This document shows, piece by piece, positions 1 to 13,368 of a stretch of DNA of 64,000 nt (the first letter of the stretch is position 1; every line of letters starts with the position of its first letter). The position numbers were made by a program, and so were the translations under genes. The stretch spans positions 6,466-70,465 of the forward strand of contig JALDXQ010000003.1 in assembly GCA_032156805.1 (NCBI GenBank), read 5' to 3'. Source of the stretch: Acidobacteriota bacterium (GTDB taxonomy: Bacteria; Acidobacteriota; Vicinamibacteria; Vicinamibacterales; UBA2999). A model generated the notes under the pieces. It was given only the letters and a program-made list of their open reading frames with translations. It was not told the DNA's origin and ran no database searches.

Positions 1-79
1 AAAGGGCGACGCCCAGCGCGAGGCAAGTCAGGGCAGTGGCGCTCGCTGGTTCACGCATGGTCTGACGGCCCCTTCCTTG

Positions 80-1279
80 TCACTGCGTCCCTGTTGGCGG
101 AGCCCCTCGACGGTTGCTCGGGGCGCCCTGAGCCCGGTCGAAGGGTGCGATTCCGAGAATCTTCGCCGGGTTGATCTTGAATAGCAAATCGAGCTCGCGC
201 TCGGTGAATCCGTTCGCGCGCAGCGCTTTTGCCGCGTTGGCCAGCGCGTCGGGCTGCCAGTTCGAGTTGAGCTGGCCCGTATCGCTCGACACGAACGCGT
301 GCTCGACGCCGGCGGCGCGGATGCCCTCGACGTACCGCTTCACGACCTCGGGCCGCGCGTTGGGGTTGCCGAACCCCGACGTGAACTCCGCATAGATCTC
401 GGGGCCGAGTGCAACCGTCTCTTTGATCTCCTCCGCTGTCATGTCCACGATGTCGAGCAGCGGGTGCGTGATGATGATGTGCTTCACCCCCACGCGCACC
501 GCTTCCTTGACGATCAGCTGCACCTCCGGCGGCGAGTTGTGTCCGGTCGCGAGGATGAGATCGCCGTTGCTGTCGCGCGTCTTGGCCTTGGCGATCACCG
601 CGAGGGCCTCTTTCACTTCCGGCAGCAGCTCGCCACCGTCGGGGCACGGCTTCGGATAGTTGATCCAGAAGGGGAGGCCTTTGCACTGCGCCACTGCCAC
701 GTACGCCGGCGGCCGGCGCGCCAGCCTGTGGATGCTGTTCTCCGAGTCCCAGCTCGGCATCCAAACGATGCGGCCCCATCCGCCTTTGATCTCGGCCATG
801 TGCGTGATCGCCCAGGGATTGACCTTCGTGCCGGTCGTCAGGTTGGAGCCCATGCCGCCGAAGATCTCCATGTCGGGATGGAGCTTGCGCATGTAGTAGG
901 CCAGCCCCGCGGTCTGATCGAGGTGGCCCTTGATGATGAACCCGCGCATGCCGGACGCTTTCGCTCGCGTGTAGAGATCCAGCGCGTCGATCGATCGCGC
1001 AGCCTGCCCGTAACTCGGCCCGAAGCTGTCGGGATCCTGGTGCGCGTGCATGTCGATCGCGCCCTTCAGCGCTGGATCGTTCGGCGCGGGATCGCTCAAC
1101 GAGTAGTTCGCACGTCCGCGTCCCGCCGGACCGCCCCCCTGCCCGCGATTGCCCTCGCCCGGCTCGCCGCGCTGCTCGGCCGCGCTGTTCTGACCCGTAC
1201 CGAGCGCCAGAGCCAGGCCGACGACGCATGCGCACACGGTCAGATGTCGTATGGAGCCGATTGATATCCGTGTCTTCAT
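80..1279 (-). CDS. Exported amidohydrolase-fold metalloprotein (DUF6282-like)
   Basis: Signal peptide; GAIDMHAHQDPD (HxH), LATGH, ITHP and SSDTGQ match TIM-barrel metallohydrolase ligand positions. Confidence 0.7.
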   Translation of the reverse strand: MKTRISIGSIRHLTVCACVVGLALALGTGQNSAAEQRGEPGEGNRGQGGGPAGRGRANYSLSDPAPNDPALKGAIDMHAHQDPDSFGPSYGQAARSIDALDLYTRAKASGMRGFIIKGHLDQTAGLAYYMRKLHPDMEIFGGMGSNLTTGTKVNPWAITHMAEIKGGWGRIVWMPSWDSENSIHRLARRPPAYVAVAQCKGLPFWINYPKPCPDGGELLPEVKEALAVIAKAKTRDSNGDLILATGHNSPPEVQLIVKEAVRVGVKHIIITHPLLDIVDMTAEEIKETVALGPEIYAEFTSGFGNPNARPEVVKRYVEGIRAAGVEHAFVSSDTGQLNSNWQPDALANAAKALRANGFTERELDLLFKINPAKILGIAPFDRAQGAPSNRRGAPPTGTQ

Positions 1280-1307
1280 CGTGGTTCCTCTCAGTGGAGC
1301 GACATTT

Positions 1308-1370
1308 CAACTCCCAACTCCCAAGGAACTGCGCATTGGGAGTTGGAGGTTGGAAGTTGGGCGTTGACGG
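1308..1370. repeat. Intergenic CTCCCAA/TTGGGAG heptamer hairpin repeat
   Basis: CAACTCCCAACTCCCAA...TTGGGAGTTGGAGGTTGGAAGTTGGGCGTTGAC; related sequences at 7611-7626 and 53478-53517. Confidence 0.7.
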
Positions 1371-1381
1371 CTTTGGTTCTA

Positions 1382-4300
1382 TCAGAAGTCCACTTGCGCA
1401 CTGAACTTCACCAGCCGCCCGTCGAGCACTTGCGTCGGCTGTCCCCATCGCGCGTTGTACGTGCCGAACAATGTGACCGGCGTATTGCTGTTGAAGAAAT
1501 TGTAAGCATCGACATTGAGCTGGAGCCGTGTCCCTCCCATCTGGAAGATCTTGGTGCCGCGCAGGTCGAACTGATTGATGCGCGGGCCGAAGGTCGAGAG
1601 CGGCGGGACGAGCGGAATGACGACCGACGTCACTCCTCCCGAGAGTGGCCGTCCCAGCGACGGCTGGATCTCGGCGAGCGTATAGGTGCGGTTGGCGCTG
1701 TAGTTCGCGCCCGGGTTGCTCTGGAAAACAGCGGCCACCTGGAGGCCGTACGGGAGCGTGTACGAGCCATTGAGCTTCACCCGGTTCTGATACGGCACGT
1801 TCACCTTGCAGTTGAACAGTTGCTGCGGTGAATCGATCACGTAGCAGGTGTCGGTCCCCGCCGAGGCGTTGCCGCCCGCCGCGGTACCGAGTTGCACGGC
1901 GTTGCCGATGTTCCAGCCGCCGCCGAGCGTGGCTCTGCCGAGCAGGCGAACCTGGAAATTGAGGTCCACGCCGTTGTAGATCTCCTCCTGCTTCCCGTAC
2001 GCGTCGTTGCGCGTAATCATGTTGTCCACCTGGCCGAACGCATTGGGGTTGATGTCGTAGAGCCCGCACAGTTGTTGCCCGCTCGTTTGCAGGCGGTCGT
2101 CCGCCGGTACCGTCACACAGTAGGGGCTGTAGTCGGCCGGCGTGACCCGCAGATTGTCCGTCACTTGGAAGTTGCCGTACCAGGTTCGGAAATAGCCCGC
2201 GTTCACCACCACGTTCGGGATCACCTCGCGATCGATGTTGATCGACGTCTGCCAGTTGTAGGTGCGCTTGCCCCAGCCCGTGATCCAGCCAGGATCAGGC
2301 GAATTCACCGGCACGTAGGTACCGAAATTGGGGTTGGCCATGGCGCCGCACTCGCCGTTGGCCGTTGTCGCGACGAGGTCGCAGTCGGGCAGGAAGTTAC
2401 CGCGGCGCGGATCGCCCACCGGGAACGTCGTGTCGTTCCACGAGCGCGTCGTGCTGTTCACTGCTCCGGCGGCCTGATCGAAGAGTTGCGCCAGACCGGT
2501 CGTGTTCGACTGCACGTAGCGGTTGATGCCGAACTTGATCGCCGTCTTCCCGCTGCCAGTTGGATCCCACACGACTGCGAATCGCGGATTGAGGTCTTTC
2601 CAGTTGGGCACGTCCGTGCGCGCGGGATAGCTGCGCGCCGGCACCAGCATGCCGGCCGGGACCTCGGTGGCTTTCACCGACTCGCGAAGCCAGTCGAACC
2701 GCAGTCCCGCGCTGAACGTGAAACGATCGATGCGCCATTGGTCCTGCACGTAGAGACCGAGATCGGGATTGAGCTGGTCGATGGTGTAGATGGGCGACGC
2801 GAACTGCGTGAGCGAACGCGGTGAGCCGTTGAAGAAGCTGTACGACACCGGCAGCCCGTTCACCTGCGTGGGTCCGCGCGTCGTGTACGAGCGATGGCCC
2901 CCGCCCAGGCCGTACATCCAGAAGACGCCCGTCTTCACGGTGTGCTGTCCCTTGATGATCGACACGTTGAAGCGCCCGTTCGACTGGTGCGACAGGCTCA
3001 TGTTCCGGTTGCCGACGCCGTTGTAGGTGAACCCGAGGCCGGTGTCGTTGATCGACACGTTGTCCTGGATCCCTCCGCCGCAGCCTTCGTAATCCGACAG
3101 GAACAGATCCTCACCGAAACCGCCGAAGTTGAATTTGCTCACCGTGACGCCGGCGTCGAACAGGAGCGCGTTCGAGTGCGGCCGGCTCCACGATCCCTGG
3201 AGCACCTCGTGGCGCTGGCAATAGCCCGGGTTGCCCTCGTTCTTGATGGTGCCGGTCTCGAGCTGCCCGGTCAGCTGGTCCTGGAAATTCCGTTGCTTGT
3301 CCCACGAGAAGGAGAGCTTGTCCTTCGAGCTTGCCTGGTAGGTGAGTCGGGCGCCGATGCCCTTGTTCGACTCCTCGGGCTCGATCGGGCTGGTGCTGTC
3401 CGGCGTGTAGAGGAAGTCGCTCACGTTCGTGTCCGCAAACAGGTTGGCGACGCCGGTCGTCGTCCCCCATCGGCGCGCCGAGGCAAAGAACCAGAGGCGA
3501 TCGGCCAGCACGGGGCCCCCGAACGCGACGTTGAAGTCGTAGACCTTCTGGACGCTGTTGACCGACGTCAACCCCTGCGCGATGAGGTCGTCATCGAGGT
3601 TGTTGCTCTGAAGGGCATCGCCCGTGCCGGCGACGAAGAACGATCCCGTGAAGCGGTTGCCTCCGTCCCTGGGAATGCTGTTCACCTGCGCGCCGCCGAG
3701 CGAATACACGGCCGAGCCCATCGTCCCGAGATCGACAACGACCTCCTGCACGGCGAGCGGATTCACGTAGTAGCCGCGCCCCGTGCCTTCGAGGGTGCCG
3801 ATGCCTGGCGTCAACGCGTTGTAGCGCATCCCGTCCTGCAGCAGGCGCGAGTCGAACGTCTTGCCGCCGTGCACGGTGATGCGGACGGAACGCTCACCCT
3901 TGCTGCCGCCCACGTCCTGCGCATTGGGCGGCTCGACGACCGCGGGAATCAGCGCCGCTATGCCCAGCACGCTCTTGGCGGTGGGCACAGTGTCGAGCAC
4001 ATCTTTCGTGACCGTGCGCTGCTGGGTCGCGCTCTGCACGTCCACCAGTGGCGTGGCACCTGACACGGTGATCGTCTCCTCGAGTTGGCTGAGCGTGAGC
4101 TCCGCGTCCACCTGTGCGGTGAAGTTGGTGCGCAGCTCGAGGCCCTCGCGCTTCAGCGTCGAGAAGCCGGTGAGTGAAAACGTGACGGTGTATGTGCCAG
4201 GCCTCAGCTCGGGCAACCGATACTGGCCGCCATCGTCGGTGATGGTTGATCGAACTTTTTCGATGAGAGCCGGGCTGGCGGCCTCGATGGTCACGCCGGG

Positions 4301-4435
4301 AAGCACGGCGCCCGATGCGTCACGAACGACGCCGGAGATAGTGGCCGTACTGGCGCCTTGCGCCAGCGCCGACGCGGGGATCAGGCTCAGAACGACGACC
4401 AGGCATGCGCGACGACCGAAAGGTGCCAACAGCAC
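1382..4435 (-). CDS. TonB-dependent receptor with N-terminal carboxypeptidase-regulatory-like domain
   Basis: ISGVVRDASGAVLPGVTIEAASPAL N-domain, GLYVQDQW, C-terminal VDF; GTG start at 4435 after AAGGAGG. Confidence 0.9.
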   Translation of the reverse strand: MLLAPFGRRACLVVVLSLIPASALAQGASTATISGVVRDASGAVLPGVTIEAASPALIEKVRSTITDDGGQYRLPELRPGTYTVTFSLTGFSTLKREGLELRTNFTAQVDAELTLSQLEETITVSGATPLVDVQSATQQRTVTKDVLDTVPTAKSVLGIAALIPAVVEPPNAQDVGGSKGERSVRITVHGGKTFDSRLLQDGMRYNALTPGIGTLEGTGRGYYVNPLAVQEVVVDLGTMGSAVYSLGGAQVNSIPRDGGNRFTGSFFVAGTGDALQSNNLDDDLIAQGLTSVNSVQKVYDFNVAFGGPVLADRLWFFASARRWGTTTGVANLFADTNVSDFLYTPDSTSPIEPEESNKGIGARLTYQASSKDKLSFSWDKQRNFQDQLTGQLETGTIKNEGNPGYCQRHEVLQGSWSRPHSNALLFDAGVTVSKFNFGGFGEDLFLSDYEGCGGGIQDNVSINDTGLGFTYNGVGNRNMSLSHQSNGRFNVSIIKGQHTVKTGVFWMYGLGGGHRSYTTRGPTQVNGLPVSYSFFNGSPRSLTQFASPIYTIDQLNPDLGLYVQDQWRIDRFTFSAGLRFDWLRESVKATEVPAGMLVPARSYPARTDVPNWKDLNPRFAVVWDPTGSGKTAIKFGINRYVQSNTTGLAQLFDQAAGAVNSTTRSWNDTTFPVGDPRRGNFLPDCDLVATTANGECGAMANPNFGTYVPVNSPDPGWITGWGKRTYNWQTSINIDREVIPNVVVNAGYFRTWYGNFQVTDNLRVTPADYSPYCVTVPADDRLQTSGQQLCGLYDINPNAFGQVDNMITRNDAYGKQEEIYNGVDLNFQVRLLGRATLGGGWNIGNAVQLGTAAGGNASAGTDTCYVIDSPQQLFNCKVNVPYQNRVKLNGSYTLPYGLQVAAVFQSNPGANYSANRTYTLAEIQPSLGRPLSGGVTSVVIPLVPPLSTFGPRINQFDLRGTKIFQMGGTRLQLNVDAYNFFNSNTPVTLFGTYNARWGQPTQVLDGRLVKFSAQVDF

Positions 4436-4518
4436 TGCTCCCTCCTTGTGTGATGCGCAACGACAAGCGGCGAAGGAGGCGCGCGGCGGGGGACAGCCCC
4501 ACAACACGAGCCGCGCGG

Positions 4519-4586
4519 ATTATGAGAAGCGCGCGGGCGGTGACTCAATGCAGGAATTGTCATCAATTGTCATCCTTCGGATGACA
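4519..4586 (-). promoter_or_regulatory. Putative promoter (CATAAT -10) with OmpR/PhoB-like direct-repeat box
   Basis: ATTATG at 4519-4524; TTGTCATCAATTGTCA at 4557-4572, identical to 8701-8716; extra inverted half-site forms TGTCATCC-TTC-GGATGACA. Confidence 0.7.
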
Positions 4587-4688
4587 CGTCACGCGAGTTG
4601 GAGTGTGGCGAAGGTGGACGCGCGACACACACAAATCCCGACACGCCTGGAAGCGCGCGATCGATCGCGAGGTCCAACGGGCTGCCGT

Positions 4689-5255
4689 CTACTTCTTCAA
4701 CAACGGGTGCACGTACCCTGCGGGCAGCACGTGATCTGGATCCGGCCGCACCGAGACGTACTCGACGTGATCGTCGACGTCGGTGAAGCCGTGATAGACG
4801 CCAGGCGGGATGATGACGATGTCACCGGGGCCGACCTTTCGCGTTTGCGCCGCCTGCCGGAACGTGCCCTGGTTGCTGGGGCCAACCGCGATCTTCACGA
4901 TCTCGCCGTCCGCGGGAAGCGGTTTCGCGCCGTCCACGGCCCCGCCCGTCAGCAGCGTCCCCGATCCCGAGATGACGTAATAAACCTCGGTCACGTGTTC
5001 GTGGTTGATCGCGCTCACTGGAGCGCCAGGCTTCGTCCTGCCGCGGCGCAGCACACCGACGCTGACGTTGTACTTGCCCATGTCCACGACTTTCATCTGC
5101 CGATCCCCGCCACCGGTCGGCGCCGTGATGACGGTTTGCACGTCGGCGGCGGTGATGTCGGTCGCCAGTGTTGGTGGTTGTCCGCCCTGAGTGAGCGTGC
5201 CGGCCTGCGACAGCATGACGAGGACGAAGACGATGGCAAGCGCAATGCGATTCAT
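4689..5255 (-). CDS. Exported cupin-domain protein
   Basis: Signal peptide MNRIALAIVFVL; cupin motifs NHEHVTEVYYVISGSG and GDIVIIPPGVYHGF. Confidence 0.85.
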   Translation of the reverse strand: MNRIALAIVFVLVMLSQAGTLTQGGQPPTLATDITAADVQTVITAPTGGGDRQMKVVDMGKYNVSVGVLRRGRTKPGAPVSAINHEHVTEVYYVISGSGTLLTGGAVDGAKPLPADGEIVKIAVGPSNQGTFRQAAQTRKVGPGDIVIIPPGVYHGFTDVDDHVEYVSVRPDPDHVLPAGYVHPLLKK

Positions 5256-5269
5256 GAAGGAACCTCCCA

Positions 5270-7597
5270 TTACTTCTTCACCCATTTCTGCAGGCACCCG
5301 CCTGATGGACTGGCGTCGCATCCTCCCGTGAGTCCCGCGAAGACGTTGCCCTCGTTGTCGGCGCCCATGCCCTCGGGCCGGGTGCCCTGGACGTAGTAGC
5401 GGAGCGATCCGTCCTTCGCGCTGCCGATCCTGATGCCGTTGCCCCACCCGGGATTACGCACCACGCTCCCGCCACCCTCGGGCGCCTGCGGCGGACCGCC
5501 GATGAACTGGCTCGATTCGGAGTCGGCCACGATGATCGTGTCGTCTTTGAGGATCGCGATGCCGCTCGGCCGGCCGAAGTGGCGCCATTCGTCGACGAAC
5601 TGCATGTCGCGATCGAAGACCTGCACGCGGTTGTTCGAGCGGTCCGCGACGAACAGCCGTCCCTGCGAGTCGAACGCGAGCGCGTGAGGCCCCATGAACT
5701 CGCCCGGTGCCGTTCCCATCCTGCCGTACTGCGCGACGAAGGTTCCGTCGGTCTTGAGCCGCACCAGCCGATCGCCATCCTGCTGGGCGTCGGTCGGCCG
5801 CGGCCAGTGCCCGTCGGCGACGATGATGTCGCCGTTTGGTGCGATCGCGCACGCGGTTGGCCCGATGAACGTGTCGGTGCCGGCCCGCGAAACGCCGGCC
5901 TTACCGAGCGACAGCAGCACTTTCCCGTCGGGACTGAACTTGAACAACTGGAAGCCACGCCCCTTGGTTGCGGGGTTGTCCGCGAACGGGCCGCTGTCGC
6001 CGGCCCAGAAGTTCCCGTCGCGGTCCTGACAGAATCCGTGCGCCTGCACGAACATGCCGTTGCCGAACCGGCGATCGACTGCACCCGACGCGTCGATGTG
6101 CAGAATCGGCGGTTCCGATCGATGGTGCAGCCACGTGCCGCCCTTGCCGTCAGGGATGATGCCGATGGCGGCGCCCGGCTTGATGTCGCCGAGTCGCGGC
6201 CAATTCGGGGTCACTTGGTACGGGCTCGCCATCGTGCTCGTCCAGGGCGGATAGCCGCCGCGTGCCTGGCCGGGCGGTGGAAACCCGCGCGGACCGCTGC
6301 TCTGGGGTGACGCAGCAGCGGGCGCCGGCGCGGCCTGCCCTGATGCGGTCGGCGTCGCGGCGAGTTGCGCAGGCGTCAATGCGTTTGGCGGGAGCGTGCT
6401 CGAGAGTCCTTTGAACATGAATCGCTGCGCGCGCGCCCCCGGCGCGACCTCACCGGTGTAGAGGTTGCCCCTGGAATCGATCGCGAGGTGATGCAAGCCC
6501 TGAAAGTCTCCCGGCTTTTCGCTCCGTTGCCCGAACTGATAGAGAAGTTGAAGGCTTCTGCGATCGAGCACCGCAATGTGCGAGTTGCCGTAGTCGGCGA
6601 CATAGAGAAAGTCCTGCTGCGCGTCGGGGGAGAACGCCAGCCCCGCTGCCGACTGCGGAGACGGCCCGGATCGATTGATGAACGTTTGCGTGACGAACTT
6701 TCCGTCCGGCGTGAAGACCTGCACACGGCGGTTCGGACGGTCGGCCACGTAGACGAGTCCGTCGTTGGAGACCTTCACGGCGTGCACGGGCCCGCCGAAC
6801 TGCTGCGAGCCGGTGCCTTCGGTATCGAGAGCCGGAGTCGCGCCACGGCCGCCGCCCGCATTCGCGCCGCCGCGAGCGCCTCCTGTTCCTCCTCCACGTG
6901 GCGCGGCCGGCACGTCGATCGGCACATTGCCGAATGCGCCCCACTGCCGTTTGAATGCTCCGGTGTCGGCGTCGAAGACGATGACGCGACGGTTGCCATA
7001 GCCGTCGGCGACAAACGCCTCGTTTGTCTTGGGCCACACGAAGACGTCAGCCGACTGGTGGACGGTCTTCGTATCAGCGTTGCCCGTGCTCTTGCTCCTG
7101 CCGCCGATCTGCAGCACGAACTTTCCCTTGTTGTCGAATTTGAGGAGCATGTCGTCGTCGAGATTCCGAAGCGACGGTGCGATCGGTGCGCTGCCGCCGA
7201 TCCATACGTTGTCCTTGTAATCGACCGCGATGCCGTGTTCGCTGTCCGGCCAGTCGTAGCCCGAACCGGGGCCGCCCCACGCGTTGACGAATTTCCCCGA
7301 TGCATCGAACTCCAGCACCGGTGGCGCCGCATGGCTGCGGCGATCCTCAGGAATCGTGTTCGGGCGGTGCAGCATCCAGACGTGATCGCGCCGATCCACA
7401 GCTACCGACGCGACGTGTCCCACGACCCAGTTGGTCGGCAGCTTCGGCCATGCCGGGTCGACTTCGAAGACGGGGACCTGTCTCGCACCCGAAGACGATT
7501 GCGCGTGCGCGCCAGAGTTCGAGAGCGTTACCACTGCCGCCATCAGCACGAGACCGACAACGACGACGCTGAAATTCCGCCAGGTTGATCTATGCAT
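5270..7597 (-). CDS. Exported protein with two tandem NHL-repeat beta-propellers (PAL-like)
   Basis: Signal peptide; repeated NHL motifs (FVADGYGNRRVIVFD, YVADRPNRRVQVF, FVADRSNNRVQVFD); two domains starting FEVDPAWPKLP and YQVTPNWPRLG, joined by an Ala/Pro linker. Confidence 0.85.
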   Translation of the reverse strand: MHRSTWRNFSVVVVGLVLMAAVVTLSNSGAHAQSSSGARQVPVFEVDPAWPKLPTNWVVGHVASVAVDRRDHVWMLHRPNTIPEDRRSHAAPPVLEFDASGKFVNAWGGPGSGYDWPDSEHGIAVDYKDNVWIGGSAPIAPSLRNLDDDMLLKFDNKGKFVLQIGGRSKSTGNADTKTVHQSADVFVWPKTNEAFVADGYGNRRVIVFDADTGAFKRQWGAFGNVPIDVPAAPRGGGTGGARGGANAGGGRGATPALDTEGTGSQQFGGPVHAVKVSNDGLVYVADRPNRRVQVFTPDGKFVTQTFINRSGPSPQSAAGLAFSPDAQQDFLYVADYGNSHIAVLDRRSLQLLYQFGQRSEKPGDFQGLHHLAIDSRGNLYTGEVAPGARAQRFMFKGLSSTLPPNALTPAQLAATPTASGQAAPAPAAASPQSSGPRGFPPPGQARGGYPPWTSTMASPYQVTPNWPRLGDIKPGAAIGIIPDGKGGTWLHHRSEPPILHIDASGAVDRRFGNGMFVQAHGFCQDRDGNFWAGDSGPFADNPATKGRGFQLFKFSPDGKVLLSLGKAGVSRAGTDTFIGPTACAIAPNGDIIVADGHWPRPTDAQQDGDRLVRLKTDGTFVAQYGRMGTAPGEFMGPHALAFDSQGRLFVADRSNNRVQVFDRDMQFVDEWRHFGRPSGIAILKDDTIIVADSESSQFIGGPPQAPEGGGSVVRNPGWGNGIRIGSAKDGSLRYYVQGTRPEGMGADNEGNVFAGLTGGCDASPSGGCLQKWVKK

Positions 7598-7627
7598 TGG
7601 ACTCGCCTCAGTCAACGCCCAACTCCG

Positions 7628-8641
7628 CTATGGAACGGCGCGAGCCGTTCCATAGTTGTCGTCCCAGCGGATGTTCAGCCAGAAGATGTCAGGCGACACC
7701 TGGCTGAAGCCGTGGTAGAAGTTCGACGGGTGGAAGAACACGTCGCCCGGTTTGGTCACCACTGACACGCCCGTATTGGGTACGCGTTCGCCGTCCTTGA
7801 CCTGATACCCCGTGTTCACAGTGGCGCCGCCGGCCAGCACGTACCACGTGTCGATCGTCTGCTCGTGCGACTCCACCGACGGCGTGCCGTTCCATCGCAG
7901 GTTCACGTTGTAGCGCCCACCCTCGATCAGCCGTGTATTACCGGACTTCTTCAGGCGCATGCCTGCCATGATCTGCTCGAGCTGCTGCTTCGAGAAGAAC
8001 AGCTCGCCGCTGCCGCCGTAGCTGTAGGGCAGTGCCTGCTGGCTGCCTGGCGGCAGTGAGGGACCGCGTCCGCGGCCGCCACCCGCGCGGCCGAGGAGGC
8101 CATTCAATGTGCCAGCCCCCATCGGAGAATCGGGCGGCCAGTCCGTGTCCCACCGCACGTTCAGCCACGTGATGTTCTTGTCGACACCGCTCACGCCGTG
8201 CGGCAGTCCTGAGGGGATGTAGACGATGTCGCCCGTCTTGATCTGGCGGCTCTGACCGCCATTGATCTTGCCCTTCTCGAGCACGCCTCCGGTGGTCAGC
8301 GTGCCGCCGCCCTCGAGCACGACCCAGAGGTCCGCAGTGATCGGGTGGACCAGCCCTGTCTCGGCGGCAGTGATGCGGCGGATGTTCACGTTGTACTTGC
8401 CGCCTTCAATCATGCGAAGCGTCTGGAGCTTCTTCGCATCCATGTCCTTCAGGTGCTGCGCCAGCTGTTCTCTGGGAATGGCGATCGAGTGGTCCCTGGG
8501 CGCCTGCTGCAGGATGACCGTTCGCCCCTCGCCGCCTCGTCCGCGGCCCGCTCCGTCGGCCGGCGCCTGTGCGCCGCCCTGTGCGAGCCCGATGGACCCG
8601 CAGGCCACGATGAGTGCCGCCCGGATCGCCGTGTTCCGCAT
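7628..8641 (-). CDS. Exported bicupin protein
   Basis: AAGGAG RBS before MRNTAIR; two internal repeats (RMIEGGKYNVNIR / RLIEGGRYNVNLR), each with cupin His motifs (GLPHG, NFYHG). Confidence 0.8.
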   Translation of the reverse strand: MRNTAIRAALIVACGSIGLAQGGAQAPADGAGRGRGGEGRTVILQQAPRDHSIAIPREQLAQHLKDMDAKKLQTLRMIEGGKYNVNIRRITAAETGLVHPITADLWVVLEGGGTLTTGGVLEKGKINGGQSRQIKTGDIVYIPSGLPHGVSGVDKNITWLNVRWDTDWPPDSPMGAGTLNGLLGRAGGGRGRGPSLPPGSQQALPYSYGGSGELFFSKQQLEQIMAGMRLKKSGNTRLIEGGRYNVNLRWNGTPSVESHEQTIDTWYVLAGGATVNTGYQVKDGERVPNTGVSVVTKPGDVFFHPSNFYHGFSQVSPDIFWLNIRWDDNYGTARAVP

Positions 8642-8663
8642 GACTGCTCCTTTACCGCCGCGC

Positions 8664-8717
8664 ATTATGAGCGGCGGCGCCCGGGCTGCAGCCGTGGCAT
8701 TTGTCATCAATTGTCAC
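8664..8717 (-). promoter_or_regulatory. Putative promoter (CATAAT -10) with second copy of the direct-repeat box
   Basis: ATTATG at 8664-8669; TTGTCATCAATTGTCA at 8701-8716. Confidence 0.7.
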
Positions 8718-8788
8718 TGAGGGAGGGAGACGCATCCGAACAGTTGGCGTTCCCGTATAATCCCGGTTCGTTCGCGGGGAGAGGGCCT

Positions 8789-9862
8789 GTGACCACGACG
8801 TCATCCCGTTTTCGATCCGGTCGTCGTGCGAGCGCAGCGTCTGGCAAACCGGCTGGACGCCGGTTCACGATCGCTGGCAAACCGGCTGGGCGCCGGTTCA
8901 CGATCGCTGGCAAACCAGCTGGGCCCTGGTTTGCTGTAGCGACGTTGCTGGTTTCGCTGTGCACGGCCTGCTCGTCGGGGGCAGCGGCTCCGCAGCCACA
9001 ACAGCTCAGGCTGTGGTCCGGCATCGCGCCGCGGTTCACCAACGATTTGATCCAGCGCTTCAACAGCGCGCTTCCCCAGACCTACATCAGCCTGCAGCCA
9101 ACCTCGGGCGGCGTCGTCGCCGTGTCAGCGGTGGACGGCGGGGAAGGGCAGTTGGGGCTCGCCCAGGCCGATGTCGTGTACCTCGCCTACCGGCGCGGCA
9201 TCGAGCGCAACCAGTATCCGCACAAGAACCTTCGCGCGATCGCGGTCCTGTGGGTGAACACTTTTCACGTGCTGGTCAGGCGTGACAGCTCCTTCATGTC
9301 GATCGAGGATCTGAAGGGCCAACGCGTCGGCATCATCCCGCCGGGGACGTCGGGCGAGTTCTCGACGCGGATCGTGCTGAGCGCCCACGGTCTCAGCTAC
9401 GCGGACATGCAGCCGATCTTCGAGCCCACCGACAGCCTCGTGCCGAAGCTCGCGTCGGGCCAGATCGACGCGGTGTTCAGCGCGAACCCGCTCATGCTGA
9501 CCGCCACCCGTACGCTCAGCCAGAGCGTCCCGCTCCGCCTGTTGCCAATCGGCCGCACCGTGACCAACCGGCTGCGCGGCAGCTATCCGTTCCTCAGGCC
9601 AGTGACGGTTGCCGCCAACCAACTCACGGGTCAGAGTCGGCCGATTGAGACGCTCGGCGCGGAGTGGCTGCTCGTCTGTCGCAGCGATCTGTCCGAGGAT
9701 CTCGTCTATCAGTTGACGCGAGCGTTCTTCGATCAGCTGCCTGCGCTGGCGCGCGATCACGGTGAAGCCGCGCTCATCGATCCCGATCAGGCACCTGCGG
9801 CTCCGATCCCCCTGCATGCCGGCGCGGCCCGCTATTATCGCGAGCGCGAGATCCTGCGATGA
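8789..9862 (+). CDS. TAXI-family TRAP-type solute-binding lipoprotein
   Basis: Lipobox-like SLCTAC; PTSGG, QLGLAQAD, DLKGQRVG..GTSG and PIPLHAGAARYYRE are typical of TAXI; TATAAT at 8756-8761 upstream; start uncertain. Confidence 0.85.
   Translation: MTTTSSRFRSGRRASAASGKPAGRRFTIAGKPAGRRFTIAGKPAGPWFAVATLLVSLCTACSSGAAAPQPQQLRLWSGIAPRFTNDLIQRFNSALPQTYISLQPTSGGVVAVSAVDGGEGQLGLAQADVVYLAYRRGIERNQYPHKNLRAIAVLWVNTFHVLVRRDSSFMSIEDLKGQRVGIIPPGTSGEFSTRIVLSAHGLSYADMQPIFEPTDSLVPKLASGQIDAVFSANPLMLTATRTLSQSVPLRLLPIGRTVTNRLRGSYPFLRPVTVAANQLTGQSRPIETLGAEWLLVCRSDLSEDLVYQLTRAFFDQLPALARDHGEAALIDPDQAPAAPIPLHAGAARYYREREILR
8841..8939 (+). repeat. 33-bp in-frame tandem repeat x3 (GKPAGRRFTIA)
   Basis: CTGGCAAACCGGCTGGRCGCCGGTTCACGATCG at 8841 and 8874; degenerate third copy at 8907. 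Confidence 0.9.
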
Positions 9863-11700
9863 TCGAGACAGGATCCGCTTCGGATCAGGCTGCGGCGGAC
9901 AAGCCGCAGGCCGTGGTTGGCGCCGAGCTGAACCAACCCAATGCTGGTGTGTTCGGGTGGCTTCACCGGCATGTGACGTTCGGCCGGCGGCGAGTTGCCG
10001 ATGGCGCCGTCCGTCTTCCAACCATCATGACGTTCGTTGTCGCAATGTTCGCAGCGACCGTCGCGCTGGTGTGGTTCGGGTACGTGGCCACTCGCGAGTG
10101 GCGGAGCGGTACGAATCTGCTCCTCGAACGGCGCGCCAACGAGGCACTGGCGCTCGTGCGCGCGGCGCTCAGTGCCGACATGAAGGGAGCCTGGATTACG
10201 ACTCTCGTCCCCTTCAACACCACGATGCTGGACGAGGATCCGCCGTACAACATGTTTCAGGTCTCTGCGCGCAGCTTTGCGCGGTTCCCTTATCCTGAGT
10301 CGTTCGTGCTGTGGAAAAACACCAGCCCTCGGCAAGGCTTCGGCGAGGCCGAAGGCAATACCTACGTGTTCAATCGCGCCGATCGCCCACCGCCGTGGGA
10401 CACGCGGCCGTCGTCGGACGATCCTTTCCCGGTCGTGCTGGTGCGCGACCCGCCCGTGCTGGCTGGGCTCGTCGCGGATATCCGAAAGCATGCGACGGCG
10501 GCGTCGCCGTTCATCATGCTGGAGCGACCAATCGAGGGGACGCCCTACCAGATCGTCGCGCACGCGATCTTTGCGTCAGGTCCGTCTCACACACTCCTGG
10601 GATTCATGGCCTTCACGGTCAACGAGCGGTGGCTGCACACGCAGTATTTCGATCCCCTGGTCGAACAGGTCGAGAAGATCGGTGGAGGACAGGGCCTCTC
10701 GATTACGGTGTCCGACGATGAGGGCCAGGTGGTGACGAAGACCGCGCCGGTGGAGCCTCACGACGGCGACCTGCACACGCGATTCCCACTCCTGTTCATC
10801 GATCCGGCGCTCGTCAAGTCGATCCCGGCGCGACCGGCACGCGTCCGCGAGTGGACGGTGCACGTACGGTCGCTGCCGGATCAGACGCTCGTTGCGACGC
10901 TCCAGGGCGCACGGCGGATGTTCATCCTGATTTCGATTGCGGCGGGCGCGAGTCTGCTGGCACTCGTCCTGACGGTTCGCGCCGACCGGGCGAGCGCGGC
11001 GCTGGCGTCGATGAAATCCGATTTCGTCGCCGCCGTGACGCACGAGCTGAAGACGCCGGTGGCGTCCATCCGGCTCGTGGGCGACACCCTTGCCAACGGC
11101 CGTTACACCTCGCCCACGACCGTGCGGGAATACGCTGGTCTGTTGTCGGTGGAAGCGTCCCGTCTCGGTGCTTCGATCGATAACCTCCTCACCTACGCGC
11201 GCTACAACAGCTCCGATGCGGCGGCGGCGACCGAACTCGCCGACGTCGAGCCGGCCGATCTGGTCGAGGACGCGCTGCAGGGCGTTCGGCCGGTGCTGGC
11301 CAACCTGGAGTTCGATCTGGTCGTTGATGTGCCGGCCGATCTCCCGCAGATCTGTGTCGATCGGCCAGCGATGATTCAGGCGCTCGACAACATCGTGGAC
11401 AACGCGATCAAGTACTCGACGACGGCCAAGCACCTGGCCATAAGAGGCAGCGCCACCGGCAAGAGCGTCACGCTGACCGTCCAGGATCGCGGGACCGGCA
11501 TTGCCCGCAAGGACCTGTCGCGTGTCTTCGAACGCTTCTATCGGGGCGGCAACGTCACCGTCAGCGGCAGCGGCCTCGGGTTGCCGATCGCGAAACGCAT
11601 CGTCGAGAGCCATGGAGGGAAGATCGCCGTGCGCAGCGCCGTCGGATCGGGAACCGAAGTCGATGTGACGCTGCCGATCGGCCGGGGTCGAAGCGCGTGA
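9859..11700 (+). CDS. Membrane sensor histidine kinase
   Basis: Two TM segments around a periplasmic domain; H-box HELKTP, N-box NIVDNAIKYS, DRGTGI, GSGLGL; ATGA overlap with the TAXI stop. Confidence 0.95.
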   Translation: MIETGSASDQAAADKPQAVVGAELNQPNAGVFGWLHRHVTFGRRRVADGAVRLPTIMTFVVAMFAATVALVWFGYVATREWRSGTNLLLERRANEALALVRAALSADMKGAWITTLVPFNTTMLDEDPPYNMFQVSARSFARFPYPESFVLWKNTSPRQGFGEAEGNTYVFNRADRPPPWDTRPSSDDPFPVVLVRDPPVLAGLVADIRKHATAASPFIMLERPIEGTPYQIVAHAIFASGPSHTLLGFMAFTVNERWLHTQYFDPLVEQVEKIGGGQGLSITVSDDEGQVVTKTAPVEPHDGDLHTRFPLLFIDPALVKSIPARPARVREWTVHVRSLPDQTLVATLQGARRMFILISIAAGASLLALVLTVRADRASAALASMKSDFVAAVTHELKTPVASIRLVGDTLANGRYTSPTTVREYAGLLSVEASRLGASIDNLLTYARYNSSDAAAATELADVEPADLVEDALQGVRPVLANLEFDLVVDVPADLPQICVDRPAMIQALDNIVDNAIKYSTTAKHLAIRGSATGKSVTLTVQDRGTGIARKDLSRVFERFYRGGNVTVSGSGLGLPIAKRIVESHGGKIAVRSAVGSGTEVDVTLPIGRGRSA

Positions 11701-11713
11701 GCGTGAACGAAGT

Positions 11714-12400
11714 ATGCACATGGCCAAGCGCGTCCTGATCATCGAAGACGACAAGGCAATTGCCCGACTGCTTCGCGACAACCTGGAGTACGAGGGGTTC
11801 GTTGTCGAAACGTGCGACAACGGTCACGACGCGCTCCCGTCGGTCAAGCGGTTCACGCCGGACTTGCTGCTCCTCGACCTGATGCTCCCGCACGGCGCCG
11901 ACGGTTTCGACATCTGCCGGGCGCTGCACGAGAGCCCGACTCGCGTCCCGGTGATCATCCTGTCGGCCCGCGGGCAGAAAGAGGATCGCATCAAGGGACT
12001 GACGCTCGGCGCCGACGACTACGTGACGAAGCCTTTCGCCCTCGACGAATTGCTGGCGCGCGTGCACGCCGTCCTGCGCCGGACCAAGCCTCCCATCGAA
12101 CAGCTGCAGCTTGGCAACACAGTCATCGACTTTCGACGGTTGCGGGCCTACTGCGGCACGAGGCGGGTGGAACTGACCGATCGGGAGTTCGAGATCCTCC
12201 ACTGCCTCGCGGAACGGGCCGGACACGTGGTGACGCGGGACGAGTTGTTGCACCTGGTCTGGGGCTATTCGGATGCGCCGCTCACACGTACCGTGGACAA
12301 TTTCATCTTTCGGCTTCGCCACAAGCTGGAGCCTGATCCTCGCCATCCCACCTACATCCGCAAGGCGTACGGCGATGGCTACCGGCTGATCATCGAATAG
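11714..12400 (+). CDS. OmpR/PhoB-family response regulator
   Basis: IIEDD, LLLLDLMLP, GADDYVTKPF, winged helix RTVDNFIFRLRHKLE. Confidence 0.95.
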   Translation: MHMAKRVLIIEDDKAIARLLRDNLEYEGFVVETCDNGHDALPSVKRFTPDLLLLDLMLPHGADGFDICRALHESPTRVPVIILSARGQKEDRIKGLTLGADDYVTKPFALDELLARVHAVLRRTKPPIEQLQLGNTVIDFRRLRAYCGTRRVELTDREFEILHCLAERAGHVVTRDELLHLVWGYSDAPLTRTVDNFIFRLRHKLEPDPRHPTYIRKAYGDGYRLIIE

Positions 12401-12522: not shown

Positions 12523-13368
12523 ATGTCCAGCCGGATGTTCGCCGTTGCGATTGTGTGCGCCGCAGTCGTTTCGTTGGACGCCCAGTGGCTCAACTATCCC
12601 GCGGCGGGCATTCCGAGGACCAAGGACGGGAAGCCCGATCTTTCTGCGCGTACTCCACGCACGGCCGACGGCAAGCCCGATCTGTCAGGGGTGTGGACAA
12701 CCGATCCCACGCCGGTCGCTGAGATGGAGCGTCTCTTTCCAGACCTCGGCGCGTTCGCGGTCCCAGGCGATGATCCCAGGTTTTTCCCCAAGTTCTTCAT
12801 CAACGTGTTTGCGGATGTGAGGCGCGAAGACGTGCCGATCAAACCCGCAGCGCTGCAGTTGCTGATGGAGCGCGGGAAGAATTTCGGCAAGGACAATCCA
12901 ACGTCCCACTGTCTGCCGGCAAGCGTTCCGATGGGCGACTTGCTACCGATCCCGCGACGGTTCATTCAAGTACGCGGCTTGCTGGTCGTCCTGTATGAAG
13001 GGTACAACCCTCAACGTCTGATCTACATGGATGGACGAAAGCATCCCGTCGACCCGCAGCCGTCGTGGATGGGCTACTCAGTCGGCAGGTGGGAGGGAGA
13101 CACGCTCGTGATCGACACGCGCGGTTTCAACGATCGCGCCTGGCTCGATGCCTTCGGGCATCCAAGGACCGAGGCCATGCACATCGTCGAACGTTGGCGA
13201 CGACGTGACTTTGGGCACATCGACGTCGAGACCAGGTTCGACGATCCGGGCGCCTACACCAAGCCGTTTTCGATTCGCTACACCCAGACGCTGACGCCCG
13301 ATACTGATGTGATCGAGGGCGTCTGTGCTGAGAACGAGAAAGATCGGATCCATCTGGACGCCAAGTAG
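12523..13368 (+). CDS. Exported protein of the 'GKPDLSGxW' family
   Basis: Signal peptide; PRTADGKPDLSGVW, HCLP, GRWEGDTLVIDT, EGVCAENE; paralogues at 34671, 35651 and 49609. Confidence 0.8.
   Translation: MSSRMFAVAIVCAAVVSLDAQWLNYPAAGIPRTKDGKPDLSARTPRTADGKPDLSGVWTTDPTPVAEMERLFPDLGAFAVPGDDPRFFPKFFINVFADVRREDVPIKPAALQLLMERGKNFGKDNPTSHCLPASVPMGDLLPIPRRFIQVRGLLVVLYEGYNPQRLIYMDGRKHPVDPQPSWMGYSVGRWEGDTLVIDTRGFNDRAWLDAFGHPRTEAMHIVERWRRRDFGHIDVETRFDDPGAYTKPFSIRYTQTLTPDTDVIEGVCAENEKDRIHLDAK

What the first reader, a model, noticed from the sequence alone, without database searches (positions are those of the whole stretch)
80..12400. Candidate undescribed sensing-and-processing system: orphan TAXI lipoprotein + two-component pair controlling a TonB receptor and exported cupin/NHL/metallohydrolase enzymes
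Seen: the TAXI gene overlaps the kinase start (ATGA) and is followed by an OmpR-type regulator; no TRAP/TAXI permease is in the window. Five divergent genes (bicupin, double NHL propeller, cupin, TonB receptor, DUF6282) all have signal peptides, and both of their promoters share one 16-bp box. Known: TAXI proteins normally feed a fused DctQM permease, while other binding proteins act as kinase co-receptors (LuxP-LuxQ, TorT-TorS, ChvE-VirA). Inference: this TAXI protein is the ligand receptor for the kinase, which switches on outer-membrane import and periplasmic breakdown of an unknown, possibly carboxylate or amide, substrate. It would be organised like a polysaccharide-utilisation locus but without glycoside hydrolases.
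Basis: partly seen in the sequence, partly recalled or inferred. Interest (0 to 1): 0.85.

Follow-up and report, generated by a model that had tools for sequence, protein, structure and literature searches.

The report
TAXI binding protein as kinase co-sensor
A soil acidobacterium has taken a binding protein that normally feeds a nutrient transporter and paired it with a membrane sensor kinase, apparently to switch on an outer-membrane importer and several exported enzymes of unknown substrate.

Summary
A TAXI-family binding protein (8789-9862) overlaps by ATGA a histidine kinase (9859-11700), followed by an OmpR-type regulator. No TAXI permease lies in the window. An exact 16-bp box, TTGTCATCAATTGTCA, occurs twice in the 7.9-Mb genome, upstream of the bicupin operon and of the TonB-receptor operon.

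The triad is a conserved family. Of 80 public loci found with the kinase's periplasmic domain, 76 of 79 assessable have an adjacent TAXI gene and none has a DctQM permease. Distant kinase relatives (0 of 14) lack both TAXI and the predicted contact motifs.

The kinase sensor models as a dCache-like fold, like LuxQ. A complex model supports TAXI-sensor binding (score 0.76, best control 0.15).

The box is kept in 9 of 9 orthologous loci. It travels with the receptor operon when that operon is relocated. Paralogous triads carry related 10-bp-period repeats that co-vary with the regulator's recognition helix.

Caveats: nothing is shown experimentally, and no ligand can be inferred, because the canonical TAXI ligand loop is missing. 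A sixth gene, of a hugely expanded unknown family, belongs to the locus but lies mostly outside the window.

Verdict: a new variant (TAXI family, transporter-free) of binding-protein-dependent two-component sensing.

The parts
1..58 (-). 5' end of 'hyp335', a secreted protein of an unannotated family. The full gene is G000:C3:5516-6523, mostly left of the window, about 20 nt after DUF6282.
   Evidence: (no Pfam hit). In 4 loci where the receptor pair is relocated it follows the cupin directly. Its C-terminal barrel is FABP/calycin-like in an AF2 model.
80..1279 (-). DUF6282 protein, exported, with an amidohydrolase-like metal-ligand pattern.
   Evidence: PF19799 E 2.5e-42; invariant DxHxH, K.H, TGH, THP, SSD; partial hhalign match to Amidohydro_2.
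1305..1355 (.). 20-nt inverted repeat between the receptor and DUF6282 genes.
   Evidence: I8, 85% complementary.
1382..4435 (-). TonB-dependent-receptor-like outer-membrane protein (CarboxypepD_reg + beta-barrel).
   Evidence: Plug is only E 1.2. The GTG start sits behind AAGGAGGG and is conserved in 6 loci.
4519..4548 (-). Receptor promoter: -35 TTGAGT, 18-nt spacer, -10 CATAAT.
   Evidence: 1 found against 0.1 in shuffles; CATAAT is invariant in 6 loci.
4557..4572 (.). Box copy 1 (TTGTCA-N4-TTGTCA), 8 nt upstream of the -35 and 32 nt from the -10.
4689..5255 (-). Exported monocupin with HxH..E / H metal motifs.
   Evidence: Cupin_2 and Cupin_1; sequence.
5270..7597 (-). Exported protein with two NHL beta-propellers.
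   Evidence: NHL E 8e-29. PDB relatives include the PAL propeller 3fvz, E 1e-19. ScyF-like, below cut-off.
7628..8641 (-). Exported bicupin, first gene of the bicupin-NHL-cupin operon.
   Evidence: Cupin_2; internal duplication; AAGGAG before the ATG.
8664..8669 (-). -10 (CATAAT) of the bicupin promoter, with no consensus -35.
   Evidence: Invariant ATAAT block in 9 loci; the scan finds no full sigma-70 match.
8701..8716 (.). Box copy 2, 31 nt from the bicupin -10 and 39 nt from the TAXI -10.
8756..8761 (+). TATAAT, likely -10 of the TAXI-kinase-regulator operon.
   Evidence: Invariant block GGATTATA (opposite strand) in 9 loci.
8789..9862 (+). TAXI-family binding protein, probably lipid-anchored, proposed co-sensor.
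   Evidence: The start codon varies GTG/ATG/TTG at the same place in orthologues.
8841..8939 (+). 33-bp x3 tandem repeat inside the n-region of the TAXI signal peptide.
   Evidence: Copy number differs between species.
9859..11700 (+). Sensor histidine kinase. The periplasmic dCache-like domain is about 10081-10908.
11714..12400 (+). OmpR/PhoB-type response regulator.

Best explanation
The TAXI protein no longer serves a transporter. It is proposed to sit, probably lipid-anchored, on the outer face of the inner membrane and to dock onto the dCache-like periplasmic domain of the kinase made from the same mRNA. Its state (ligand-bound or not) would set kinase activity. The phosphorylated OmpR-type regulator would bind the direct repeat TGACAA-N4-TGACAA just upstream of the -35 region of two promoters. 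It would activate bicupin-NHL-cupin and receptor-DUF6282-hyp335, and probably its own divergent operon and a hyp335 paralogue elsewhere. Shown by sequence and comparison: the gene order, the overlap, the box, their conservation, and the absence of a permease. Supported by models only: the docking. Inferred: ligand dependence, activation rather than repression, and the substrate, which is unknown.
For: 1. Synteny. All 8 orthologous loci in other species of the genus keep TAXI-kinase-regulator with the divergent bicupin operon.
2. Survey. Among 80 public loci found with the kinase's sensor domain (31-88% identity), TAXI is directly upstream on the same strand in 72, divergent-adjacent in 4, absent in 3 and not assessable in 1. 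DctQM is found in 0 of 80 (L083 and L139 reclassified by eye).
3. Specificity. In a second sample, strong sensor matches have TAXI in 3 of 3 loci. Distant sensor relatives have it in 0 of 14, and they lack the FAR[FY]PYPE, DMxG and [FY]PV motifs.
4. No spare permease. G059 (98% complete) has two TAXI genes, both kinase-linked. Its only DctM belongs to a TAtT-DctP-DctQM locus.
5. Sensor fold. The AF2 model has pLDDT 92. Foldseek hits are dCache-type domains including LuxQ, solved with LuxP.
6. Complex model. Score 0.76 against a best control of 0.15. That mark was reached by 58 of 80 solved complexes and 2 of 110 mismatched pairs (counts hold only roughly, because my own alignments were used). 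The runs share at least 78% of contacts, and partner pLDDT is at least 87.
7. Interface conservation. Interface positions are enriched for conserved residues in TAXI (12 of 30 against 29 of 262) and in the sensor (11 of 30 against 33 of 246). They are also enriched for residues specific to kinase-linked TAXIs (5 of 30 against 7 of 262).
8. Box. There are only 2 exact copies in the genome, at the same distance (31-32 nt) from a conserved CATAAT. The box is kept in 9 of 9 bicupin-side and 6 of 6 receptor-side promoters amid variable flanks, including 4 loci where the receptor operon moved behind the regulator.
9. Paralogues. TTGTC-N5-TTGTC lies upstream of TAXI in 22 of 73 loci, against 0.02 in shuffles. 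Three box variants go with three recognition-helix variants.
Against: No experiment and no expression data exist; no RNA run holds the stretch. The complex score is a model's confidence, and the alignments were paired by locus, which the calibration did not cover. The loci are related to each other, so the counts and Fisher tests overstate independence.

The canonical ligand loop (GG-x-aromatic-aromatic) is present in 14 of 14 permease-linked TAXIs but only 21 of 70 kinase-linked ones, and not in this protein. Of the VcGluP contact residues only the Gln is kept, so ligand binding itself is unproven.

Two permease-linked TAXIs nest inside the kinase-linked group in a quick tree, so the two roles have interconverted and dual use is possible. 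Three loci of the kinase family have no TAXI nearby. About 50 of 73 TAXI upstream regions show no strict repeat. That the regulator binds the box is inferred from the known habit of OmpR/PhoB regulators (recalled), not tested.
Confidence: 0.6

Rival explanations
1. The TAXI protein is a ligand-independent accessory subunit of the kinase (a scaffold or modulator). The signal is read by the kinase's own dCache pockets or comes from elsewhere.
For: The canonical TAXI ligand loop is missing here and in 49 of 70 kinase-linked relatives by a strict motif. Most VcGluP contact residues are replaced. dCache domains commonly bind ligands themselves (Foldseek hits are ligand-bound chemoreceptor domains).
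Against: The two-lobe TAXI fold and its hinge motifs are retained at full length. Many kinase-linked paralogues keep the loop (21 of 70). The pocket Gln is kept. Diversification of pocket residues among paralogous triads fits changing ligands as well as loss of binding.
Confidence: 0.2
2. The TAXI protein is still a transport binding protein that uses a permease encoded elsewhere (for example the DctQM on contig C23). It sits next to the two-component genes only because they regulate it.
For: The genome has one TAXI-type DctQM. Dual transport and signalling binding proteins exist (BctC, CBP; review table). Permease-linked TAXIs nest among kinase-linked ones.
Against: The C23 permease has its own adjacent TAXI. 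No permease was found in 0 of 80 loci. G059 has two kinase-linked TAXIs and no TAXI-type permease found. Translational coupling to the kinase, kinase-specific conserved surface residues, and the complex model all point to the kinase as partner.
Confidence: 0.1
3. The 16-bp box is the site of some other regulator, or a shared promoter element, and the adjacent two-component system controls different genes.
For: No binding data exist. Only about a third of related loci show a strict repeat upstream of TAXI. A 14-of-16 match elsewhere in the genome is close to chance expectation on composition (own estimate about 0.5).
Against: The box stays linked to the triad in all orthologous loci and moves with the receptor operon. 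Its form, a direct repeat with a 10-bp period next to the -35, is that of OmpR/PhoB sites (recalled). Box variants track recognition-helix variants of the adjacent regulator in three groups.
Confidence: 0.1

Closest known systems
LuxP-LuxQ (Vibrio autoinducer-2 sensing)
   Same: A periplasmic binding protein docks on a tandem-PAS/dCache-like periplasmic domain of a membrane kinase. LuxQ and LuxP-LuxQ structures (3c30, 2hj9, 1zhh) are among the fold matches of this sensor. The binding protein has no transport role.
   Different: LuxP belongs to another binding-protein family. LuxQ is a hybrid kinase feeding a phosphorelay, not an OmpR-type regulator (recalled). There is no sequence relationship; TM-scores are only 0.31-0.39.
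BctC-BctE/BctD (Bordetella citrate, TTT family)
   Same: A binding protein of a secondary (non-ABC) transporter family signals to a neighbouring two-component kinase (passages read in PMC5812351; table in PMC8050422).
   Different: BctC also feeds its BctBA permease and is of the TctC family. Here no permease is linked and the family is TAXI.
AioX-AioS-AioR (arsenite sensing) and CBP-ChiS (chitin sensing)
   Same: A dedicated or dual binding protein is encoded beside a kinase whose sensor is Cache-like, and controls catabolic or uptake genes (table in PMC8050422).
   Different: The binding-protein families differ (Phosphonate-bd, SBP_bac_5), as do the regulator classes. None is TAXI/NMT1_3; that review's text has no TAXI entry.
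TAXI-TRAP transporters (TtGluBP 1us4, VcGluP 8s4j with VcGluQM)
   Same: Same protein family (TIGR02122, PF16868) and homologous over the whole two-lobe fold.
   Different: [quoted passage not shown] The ligand loop and most contact residues are changed. A C-terminal extension and surface residues are specific to kinase-linked members.
Bacteroidota polysaccharide-utilisation loci (SusC/SusD with a sensor)
   Same: A sensor-regulator next to an outer-membrane TonB-type importer and exported enzymes. A TonB-type receptor lies within 6 kb in 46 of 80 related loci.
   Different: No SusD, no glycoside hydrolase, and the SusC model match is far below cut-off (19.7 against 368 bits). The sensor type is different.

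Membership tests
TAXI family of TRAP solute-binding proteins (TIGR02122 / PF16868) | Sequence match above the curated cut-offs | tested here: met
   TIGR02122 196.7 bits (cut-off 84.35); PF16868 171.6 bits (cut-off 27).
TAXI family of TRAP solute-binding proteins (TIGR02122 / PF16868) | Homology to solved TAXI binding proteins over both lobes | tested here: met
   1us4 E 1e-30 and 8s4j E 1e-25 over residues 36-291 of 292; the profile search gives E 4e-63.
TAXI-TRAP transporter system | Binding-protein gene beside a fused DctQM permease | tested here: not met
   No PF06808 match on the window's contig; none in 80 related loci.
Glutamate-type TAXI binding site (VcGluP/TtGluBP) | Gly-rich loop with Tyr pair, and contact residues S75, Q93, E125, G156/D157, Y200/M201 | tested here: not met
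   The loop is absent (SGIAPRFTND). Only Q93 is kept (Q61). The others are replaced by G, N, S/G and S/A.
Binding-protein-dependent two-component sensors (LuxPQ type) | Binding-protein gene in one operon with, or beside, the kinase, conserved across relatives | tested here: met
   ATGA overlap; 76 of 79 assessable loci.
Binding-protein-dependent two-component sensors (LuxPQ type) | Kinase with a periplasmic tandem-PAS/dCache-like domain | tested here: met
   AF2 model pLDDT 92; Foldseek probability 1.0 to McpU, KinD, PctD and LuxQ domains, with TM 0.33-0.5. There is no Pfam match for the domain.
Binding-protein-dependent two-component sensors (LuxPQ type) | Physical binding of the binding protein to the sensor domain | tested here: inconclusive
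   Only a model: score 0.76 against a best control of 0.15, with a conserved and group-specific interface.
Binding-protein-dependent two-component sensors (LuxPQ type) | Ligand-dependent change of kinase output | not testable with these tools
   Needs biochemistry or genetics.
OmpR/PhoB-type regulon | Receiver domain plus winged-helix Trans_reg_C domain | tested here: met
   PF00072 E 6e-31 and PF00486 E 3e-24.
OmpR/PhoB-type regulon | Direct-repeat site with a period of about 10 bp next to the -35 of target promoters | tested here: met
   TTGTCA-N4-TTGTCA lies 8 nt from the -35. Binding itself was not tested.
TonB-dependent receptor | Plug domain inside a 22-strand barrel | tested here: inconclusive
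   Barrel PF25183 101 bits. Plug only 10.2 bits, E 1.2, but at the expected place.
Polysaccharide-utilisation locus | SusC/SusD pair and glycoside hydrolases | tested here: not met
   TIGR04056 19.7 against 368 bits. No SusD or glycoside-hydrolase family among the 10 proteins scanned.
Amidohydrolase superfamily (for DUF6282) | HxH, Lys/His, His, His, Asp metal ligands on a TIM barrel | tested here: inconclusive
   The motif pattern is invariant in 10 sequences. hhalign against an own-genome Amidohydro_2 profile gives 72.8% probability over the C-terminal 71 columns only. No fold model was made.

The most novel reading that the evidence does not exclude
Vicinamibacteria and some other Acidobacteriota have turned the TAXI binding protein into the receptor module of a large, diversifying family of transporter-free 'TAXI-dCache kinase-OmpR' switches. 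Each switch gates its own TonB-type importer and set of exported enzymes through a variant of one direct-repeat operator. This would be an acidobacterial counterpart of PUL sensors. In subgroups like this one the classical ligand loop has been replaced, so the TAXI pocket would recognise a new class of ligand, for example the periplasmic product of the exported cupin/NHL enzymes.
Probability: 0.35. Interest if true: 0.78.

Novelty: new variant of a known kind. Interest (0 to 1): 0.62.

Why it matters
TAXI proteins are the least understood branch of TRAP transport, and a review treats them as always partnered with a DctQM permease (passage read). A conserved, transporter-free TAXI-kinase family would add TAXI/NMT1_3 to the binding-protein families used for signalling. 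It would also explain 'orphan' TAXI genes in Acidobacteriota.

The family offers a defined entry point into how abundant, mostly uncultured soil Acidobacteriota decide which TonB-dependent uptake systems and secreted enzymes to express. That entry point comprises one binding protein, one sensor domain with named contact motifs, one regulator and one operator.

It also flags several unannotated families as co-regulated parts of one pathway whose substrate could be found from the TAXI ligand. These are the sensor domain, DUF6282, and the roughly 60-copy hyp335 family.

Tried and rejected
- Expression: no RNA holder was listed for window 4300-12400.
- hyp335 as a SusD-like partner of TonB receptors: rejected. 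Only 9 of 65 paralogues lie within 6 kb of a receptor match, against 15% of the genome.
- The ~620-aa DctM genes in relatives as orphan TAXI permeases: rejected. They belong to TAtT-DctP-DctQM loci.
- DUF6282: PDB sequence search found nothing useful, a permissive Pfam scan added nothing, and the Atlas gave only DUF6282 clusters, one of them with 11% Amidohydro_2.
- Bicupin: PDB hits only at E above 0.1.
- Pfam gave no family for the sensor domain, hyp281 or hyp335.
- A first mapping of interface residues used a wrong offset. It was discarded and redone.
- One search failed because one reference contained stop codons; it was resent without that reference.
- Literature: six searches and passages of five papers gave no description of a TAXI-kinase signalling pair.
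- Supplements were closed. Data S1 of PMC11574862 (a TAXI alignment) was not seen and might list such orphans. Mulligan et al. 2011, cited there for TAXI genomic context, was not read.

Full report
**What is there.** The window is G000:C3:6466-70465 of a 7.9-Mb, 404-contig, 96%-complete genome. Public relatives are titled Vicinamibacterales / Acidobacteriota.

- On the minus strand lie, in order of transcription: bicupin (7628-8641), a protein with two NHL propellers (5270-7597) and a cupin (4689-5255).
- After a 250-nt gap come a CarboxypepD_reg + beta-barrel receptor (1382-4435) and DUF6282 (80-1279).
- On the plus strand lie a TAXI protein (8789-9862), a HisKA/HATPase kinase (9859-11700) and an OmpR-type regulator (11714-12400).
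- The TAXI stop and the kinase start overlap as ATGA.
- All five minus-strand proteins begin with a basic stretch and a hydrophobic segment. No signal-peptide predictor was available.
- The TAXI start at 8789 is supported by a start codon that varies GTG/ATG/TTG at the same position in nine species.
- The receptor's Plug domain is only a sub-threshold match.

**The box.** TTGTCATCAATTGTCA is exact at 4557-4572 and 8701-8716. No other site in the window matches at up to three mismatches. These are the only exact copies in the genome, and the reversed-pattern control found none.

- It is a direct repeat, TTGTCA-N4-TTGTCA.
- Read in the direction of the target genes, both promoters have the form box, 31-32 nt, CATAAT. 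At the receptor promoter a TTGAGT -35 lies 8 nt from the box.
- The bicupin promoter has no consensus -35, as expected of an activator-dependent promoter (inference).
- The same box lies 39 nt upstream of a TATAAT for the TAXI operon, so autoregulation is possible.

**Conservation of the locus.** Eight of 35 other species of the genus carry an orthologous TAXI at 76-85% identity.

- In all eight it is followed by the kinase and the regulator, and faces the bicupin operon.
- The receptor-DUF6282 pair follows the cupin in this genome and in G011. In G034, G026, G012 and G004 it lies behind the regulator on the other strand. In G016, G003 and G022 it was not seen in the stretch held.
- The box is present on the bicupin side in 9 of 9 loci: exact in 8, one change in G011.
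- It is present about 120 nt upstream of the receptor start in 6 of 6 loci where that region could be read, including all four relocated ones (one change at the last base).
- In alignments the box and the -10 are the invariant blocks and the flanks vary. G011 carries the same C-to-T change in both of its boxes.

**The triad is a family.** I aligned the roughly 270-residue periplasmic domain of the kinase, which has no Pfam match, from 13 loci. I used that alignment to scan one genome for each of 185,579 species.

- 135 stretches encoded relatives and the best 80 were returned. By title these are Acidobacteriota or unclassified uncultured MAGs, mostly Vicinamibacterales, with one Terriglobia, one Bryobacteraceae, and five records titled Bifidobacterium/Bifidobacteriaceae that look mislabelled.
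- Fifteen are orthologues (66-88% sensor identity); the rest are 31-49% identical.
- TAXI lies directly upstream on the same strand in 72, divergent and adjacent in 4, is absent in 3 (L116, L125, L128), and could not be assessed in 1 (L097). The script gave 70/4/4/1/1; L083 (10-nt overlap) and L139 (kinase cut by the contig end) were reclassified from the table.
- An OmpR-type regulator lies directly downstream in 64 and elsewhere in the locus in 12.
- A TonB-type receptor lies within 6 kb in 46. A DctQM permease lies in none.
- In an even sample of 301 genomes of the phylum (at least 90% complete), 15 had a sensor match at E <= 1e-10, nine of them in the window's family. Only 8 candidates per genome were scored, so this may undercount.
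- From that sample, the three strong matches have an adjacent TAXI. The 14 weak matches (46-83 bits) have none within about 3.5 kb.

**Is a permease waiting elsewhere?** The own genome has one canonical TAXI + DctQM pair, on C23. G059 (98% complete, 8 contigs) has two full TAXI genes, both kinase-linked. Its only DctM gene belongs to a TAtT-DctP-DctQM locus, as in G012.

I built a quick IQ-TREE of 71 TAXI domains. These came from 88 rows after removing rows more than 80% identical; rows with under 270 profile positions, and loci L041-L048 and L051-L057 (duplicates of later loci), had been left out beforehand.

- 53 of 55 kinase-linked proteins fall in one weakly supported group.
- That group also holds two permease-linked ones.
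- The labels need 3 changes, against 14.6 when shuffled.

So the association is old and clustered, but the two roles have interconverted.

**Does TAXI touch the kinase?**

- The sensor domain models with pLDDT 92 as a long helix followed by two PAS-like modules.
- Its Foldseek matches are dCache-type ligand-binding domains: McpU, KinD, PctD, and LuxQ including LuxP-LuxQ complexes. E-values go down to 4e-7 and TM-scores are 0.3-0.5.
- A complex prediction used 61-row alignments of each chain, taken from the same loci in the same order. It scored 0.76 (median of three runs) against a best control of 0.15.
- That mark was reached by 58 of 80 solved complexes and 2 of 110 mismatched pairs. The tool notes these counts hold only roughly with my own alignments. 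The runs agree in at least 78% of contacts, and partner pLDDT is at least 87.
- The model supports binding; it does not show it.
- The interface joins the sensor's FAR[FY]PYPE motif, part of helix 1 and the [FY]PV loop to TAXI's C-terminal A-P-x-P-I-P-L-H-x-G-A-x-R-Y-Y-R-E-x-x-x-R region and residues around Y66-R71 and R198-P206.
- Conserved positions are enriched at the interface in both chains: TAXI 12 of 30 against 29 of 262, and sensor 11 of 30 against 33 of 246.
- Residues conserved in kinase-linked but not permease-linked TAXIs are also enriched: 5 of 30 against 7 of 262. Examples are R198, P271, A272, L277 and E289. These tests treat related sequences and neighbouring positions as independent, so they overstate.
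- The TAXI-less distant kinases read GL-x-ESPF[IV] where the TAXI-linked ones read FAR[FY]PYPE. They also lack DMxG and [FY]PV.

**Does the regulator use the box?** This is inference. OmpR/PhoB regulators bind direct repeats with a period of about 10 bp near the -35 (recalled textbook knowledge).

- TTGTC-N5-TTGTC, in the same orientation, lies upstream of TAXI in 22 of 73 related loci (12 orthologous, 10 paralogous), against 0.02 in shuffles.
- Three operator variants go with three recognition-helix variants of the adjacent regulator:
  - TTGTCA...TTGTCA with TRTVDNFI;
  - TTGTCGCAA...TTGTC with TRSVDHAI;
  - TTGTGACAAGTTGCGACA with TRSVDRAV.
  That is only three lineages.
- A 14-of-16 match to the box, at the junction of contigs C306 and C339, lies 30 nt from a TATGGT and just upstream of a 73%-identical paralogue of the locus's sixth gene. 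A site of that quality is near chance expectation genome-wide (my estimate about 0.5), so only its position makes it a candidate.

**What is sensed and processed?** Unknown.

- Of the VcGluP ligand contacts (section read in PMC11574862), only the key Gln is kept. I mapped them through the 8s4j alignment with an offset of 28, checked on S75, Q93, H123, E125 and G156/D157. The others are G, W, N, S, G, S and A.
- The N-terminal Gly-rich loop with the aromatic pair is present in 14 of 14 permease-linked TAXIs but in only 21 of 70 kinase-linked ones. Here it reads SGIAPRFTND.
- The pocket has therefore diverged. A carboxylate or amide ligand cannot be argued from sequence, and a ligand-free accessory role cannot be excluded.
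- The monocupin has full metal motifs; the bicupin has partial ones.
- The second NHL propeller resembles the PAL lyase propeller (3fvz, E 1e-19).
- DUF6282 has an amidohydrolase-like ligand pattern.
- Tannase-family and hyp281/hyp335-family genes recur around these loci. A phenolic or ester substrate is a guess only.

**Beyond the coordinates given.**

- About 20 nt after DUF6282 a sixth gene starts at window position 58 and runs left (G000:C3:5516-6523; 335 aa; no Pfam hit).
- In four loci where the receptor pair has moved, this gene follows the cupin directly, so it belongs to the unit.
- The family has 60-65 near-full-length paralogues in this one genome.
- An AF2 model (pLDDT 82) has a C-terminal barrel with weak but consistent FABP/calycin matches (E 4e-4, TM 0.47-0.51 on the target).

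**Comparison with what is known, and novelty.** Binding-protein-dependent kinases are well known.

- LuxP-LuxQ structures appeared.
- AioX-AioS, BctC-BctE and CBP-ChiS are in the review table.
- TorT-TorS and ChvE-VirA are recalled.
- In the passages I read, that review lists no TAXI/NMT1_3 case.
- Two recent TAXI papers mention orphans but no kinase.
- A TRAP/TTT review says TAXI proteins were always found with fused DctQM.
- Six full-text searches found no TAXI-kinase pair.
- Supplements were closed, and Mulligan et al. 2011 was not read.

I therefore file this as a new variant of a known kind: same logic as LuxPQ, with a new binding-protein family, a new unannotated sensor subfamily and a defined operator.

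**Limits.** Locus L037 comes from G009, which is flagged unpublished. It was only one of four 'long-form TAXI' rows and no claim above rests on it.

Noticed in passing
window 1-58 (-), continuing to G000:C3:5516-6523 (L145:5516-6523:-): The sixth gene of the locus ('hyp335') is secreted and has no Pfam or NCBIfam family. It carries the motifs PRTPDGRPDLQGVW and C-HEGNY. There are 60-65 near-full-length paralogues in this genome alone. The AF2 model has a FABP/calycin-like C-terminal barrel. Paralogues are not enriched next to TonB receptors.
   Followed up: partly
G000:C306:6532-6547 = C339:18-33 (L009, L010): A 14-of-16 match to the box (TTGTCAGCAATTGTCT) lies 30 nt from a TATGGT and just upstream of a 73%-identical hyp335 paralogue. 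It is a possible third target of the regulator.
   Followed up: partly
window 8841-8939: A 33-bp x3 tandem repeat encodes GKPAGRRFTIA repeats in the n-region of the TAXI signal peptide. G011 has a 36-bp version with 3-4 copies; G016, G026 and G022 have none. Each unit also holds a 7-bp inverted repeat.
   Followed up: partly
window 4435-4500 (-): In the receptor's 5' leader, a conserved CGCGCGCCTCCTT lies about 45 nt upstream of, and is complementary to, the AAGGAGGG ribosome-binding site in 6 species. It may be a hairpin that sequesters the ribosome-binding site.
   Followed up: no
window 1305-1355: A 20-nt inverted repeat (85% complementary) lies between the receptor and DUF6282 genes.
   Followed up: no
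window 12523-13368 (+) and 13968-15497 (+): hyp281, a distant relative of hyp335 (26% identity over 100 aa), and a tannase/feruloyl-esterase family protein (E 7e-115) follow the regulator. Paralogues of both, and of DUF6282, cluster upstream of the relocated receptor operon in G012. The genome has about 18 tannase-like and about 110 TonB-receptor-like matches.
   Followed up: partly
L029, L030, L035, L037 (relatives G013, G014, G008, G009): A TAXI domain sits at the C-terminus of proteins of 770 aa or more, whose N-terminal 480 aa have no Pfam match. They form a separate clade in the TAXI tree. L037 is from the unpublished genome G009.
   Followed up: partly
L129, L137: Two tandem TAXI genes lie upstream of one kinase of this family.
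   Followed up: no
L095, L098, L100, L121, L130: Public MAG records titled 'uncultured Bifidobacterium/Bifidobacteriaceae' carry Acidobacteriota-type TAXI-kinase loci. These are probably taxonomic mislabels.
   Followed up: no
L044 (G003), L046 (G012), L048 (G004): The kinase, NHL or bicupin genes are split over frames in these assemblies. They could be frameshifts or assembly errors; this was not resolved.
   Followed up: no
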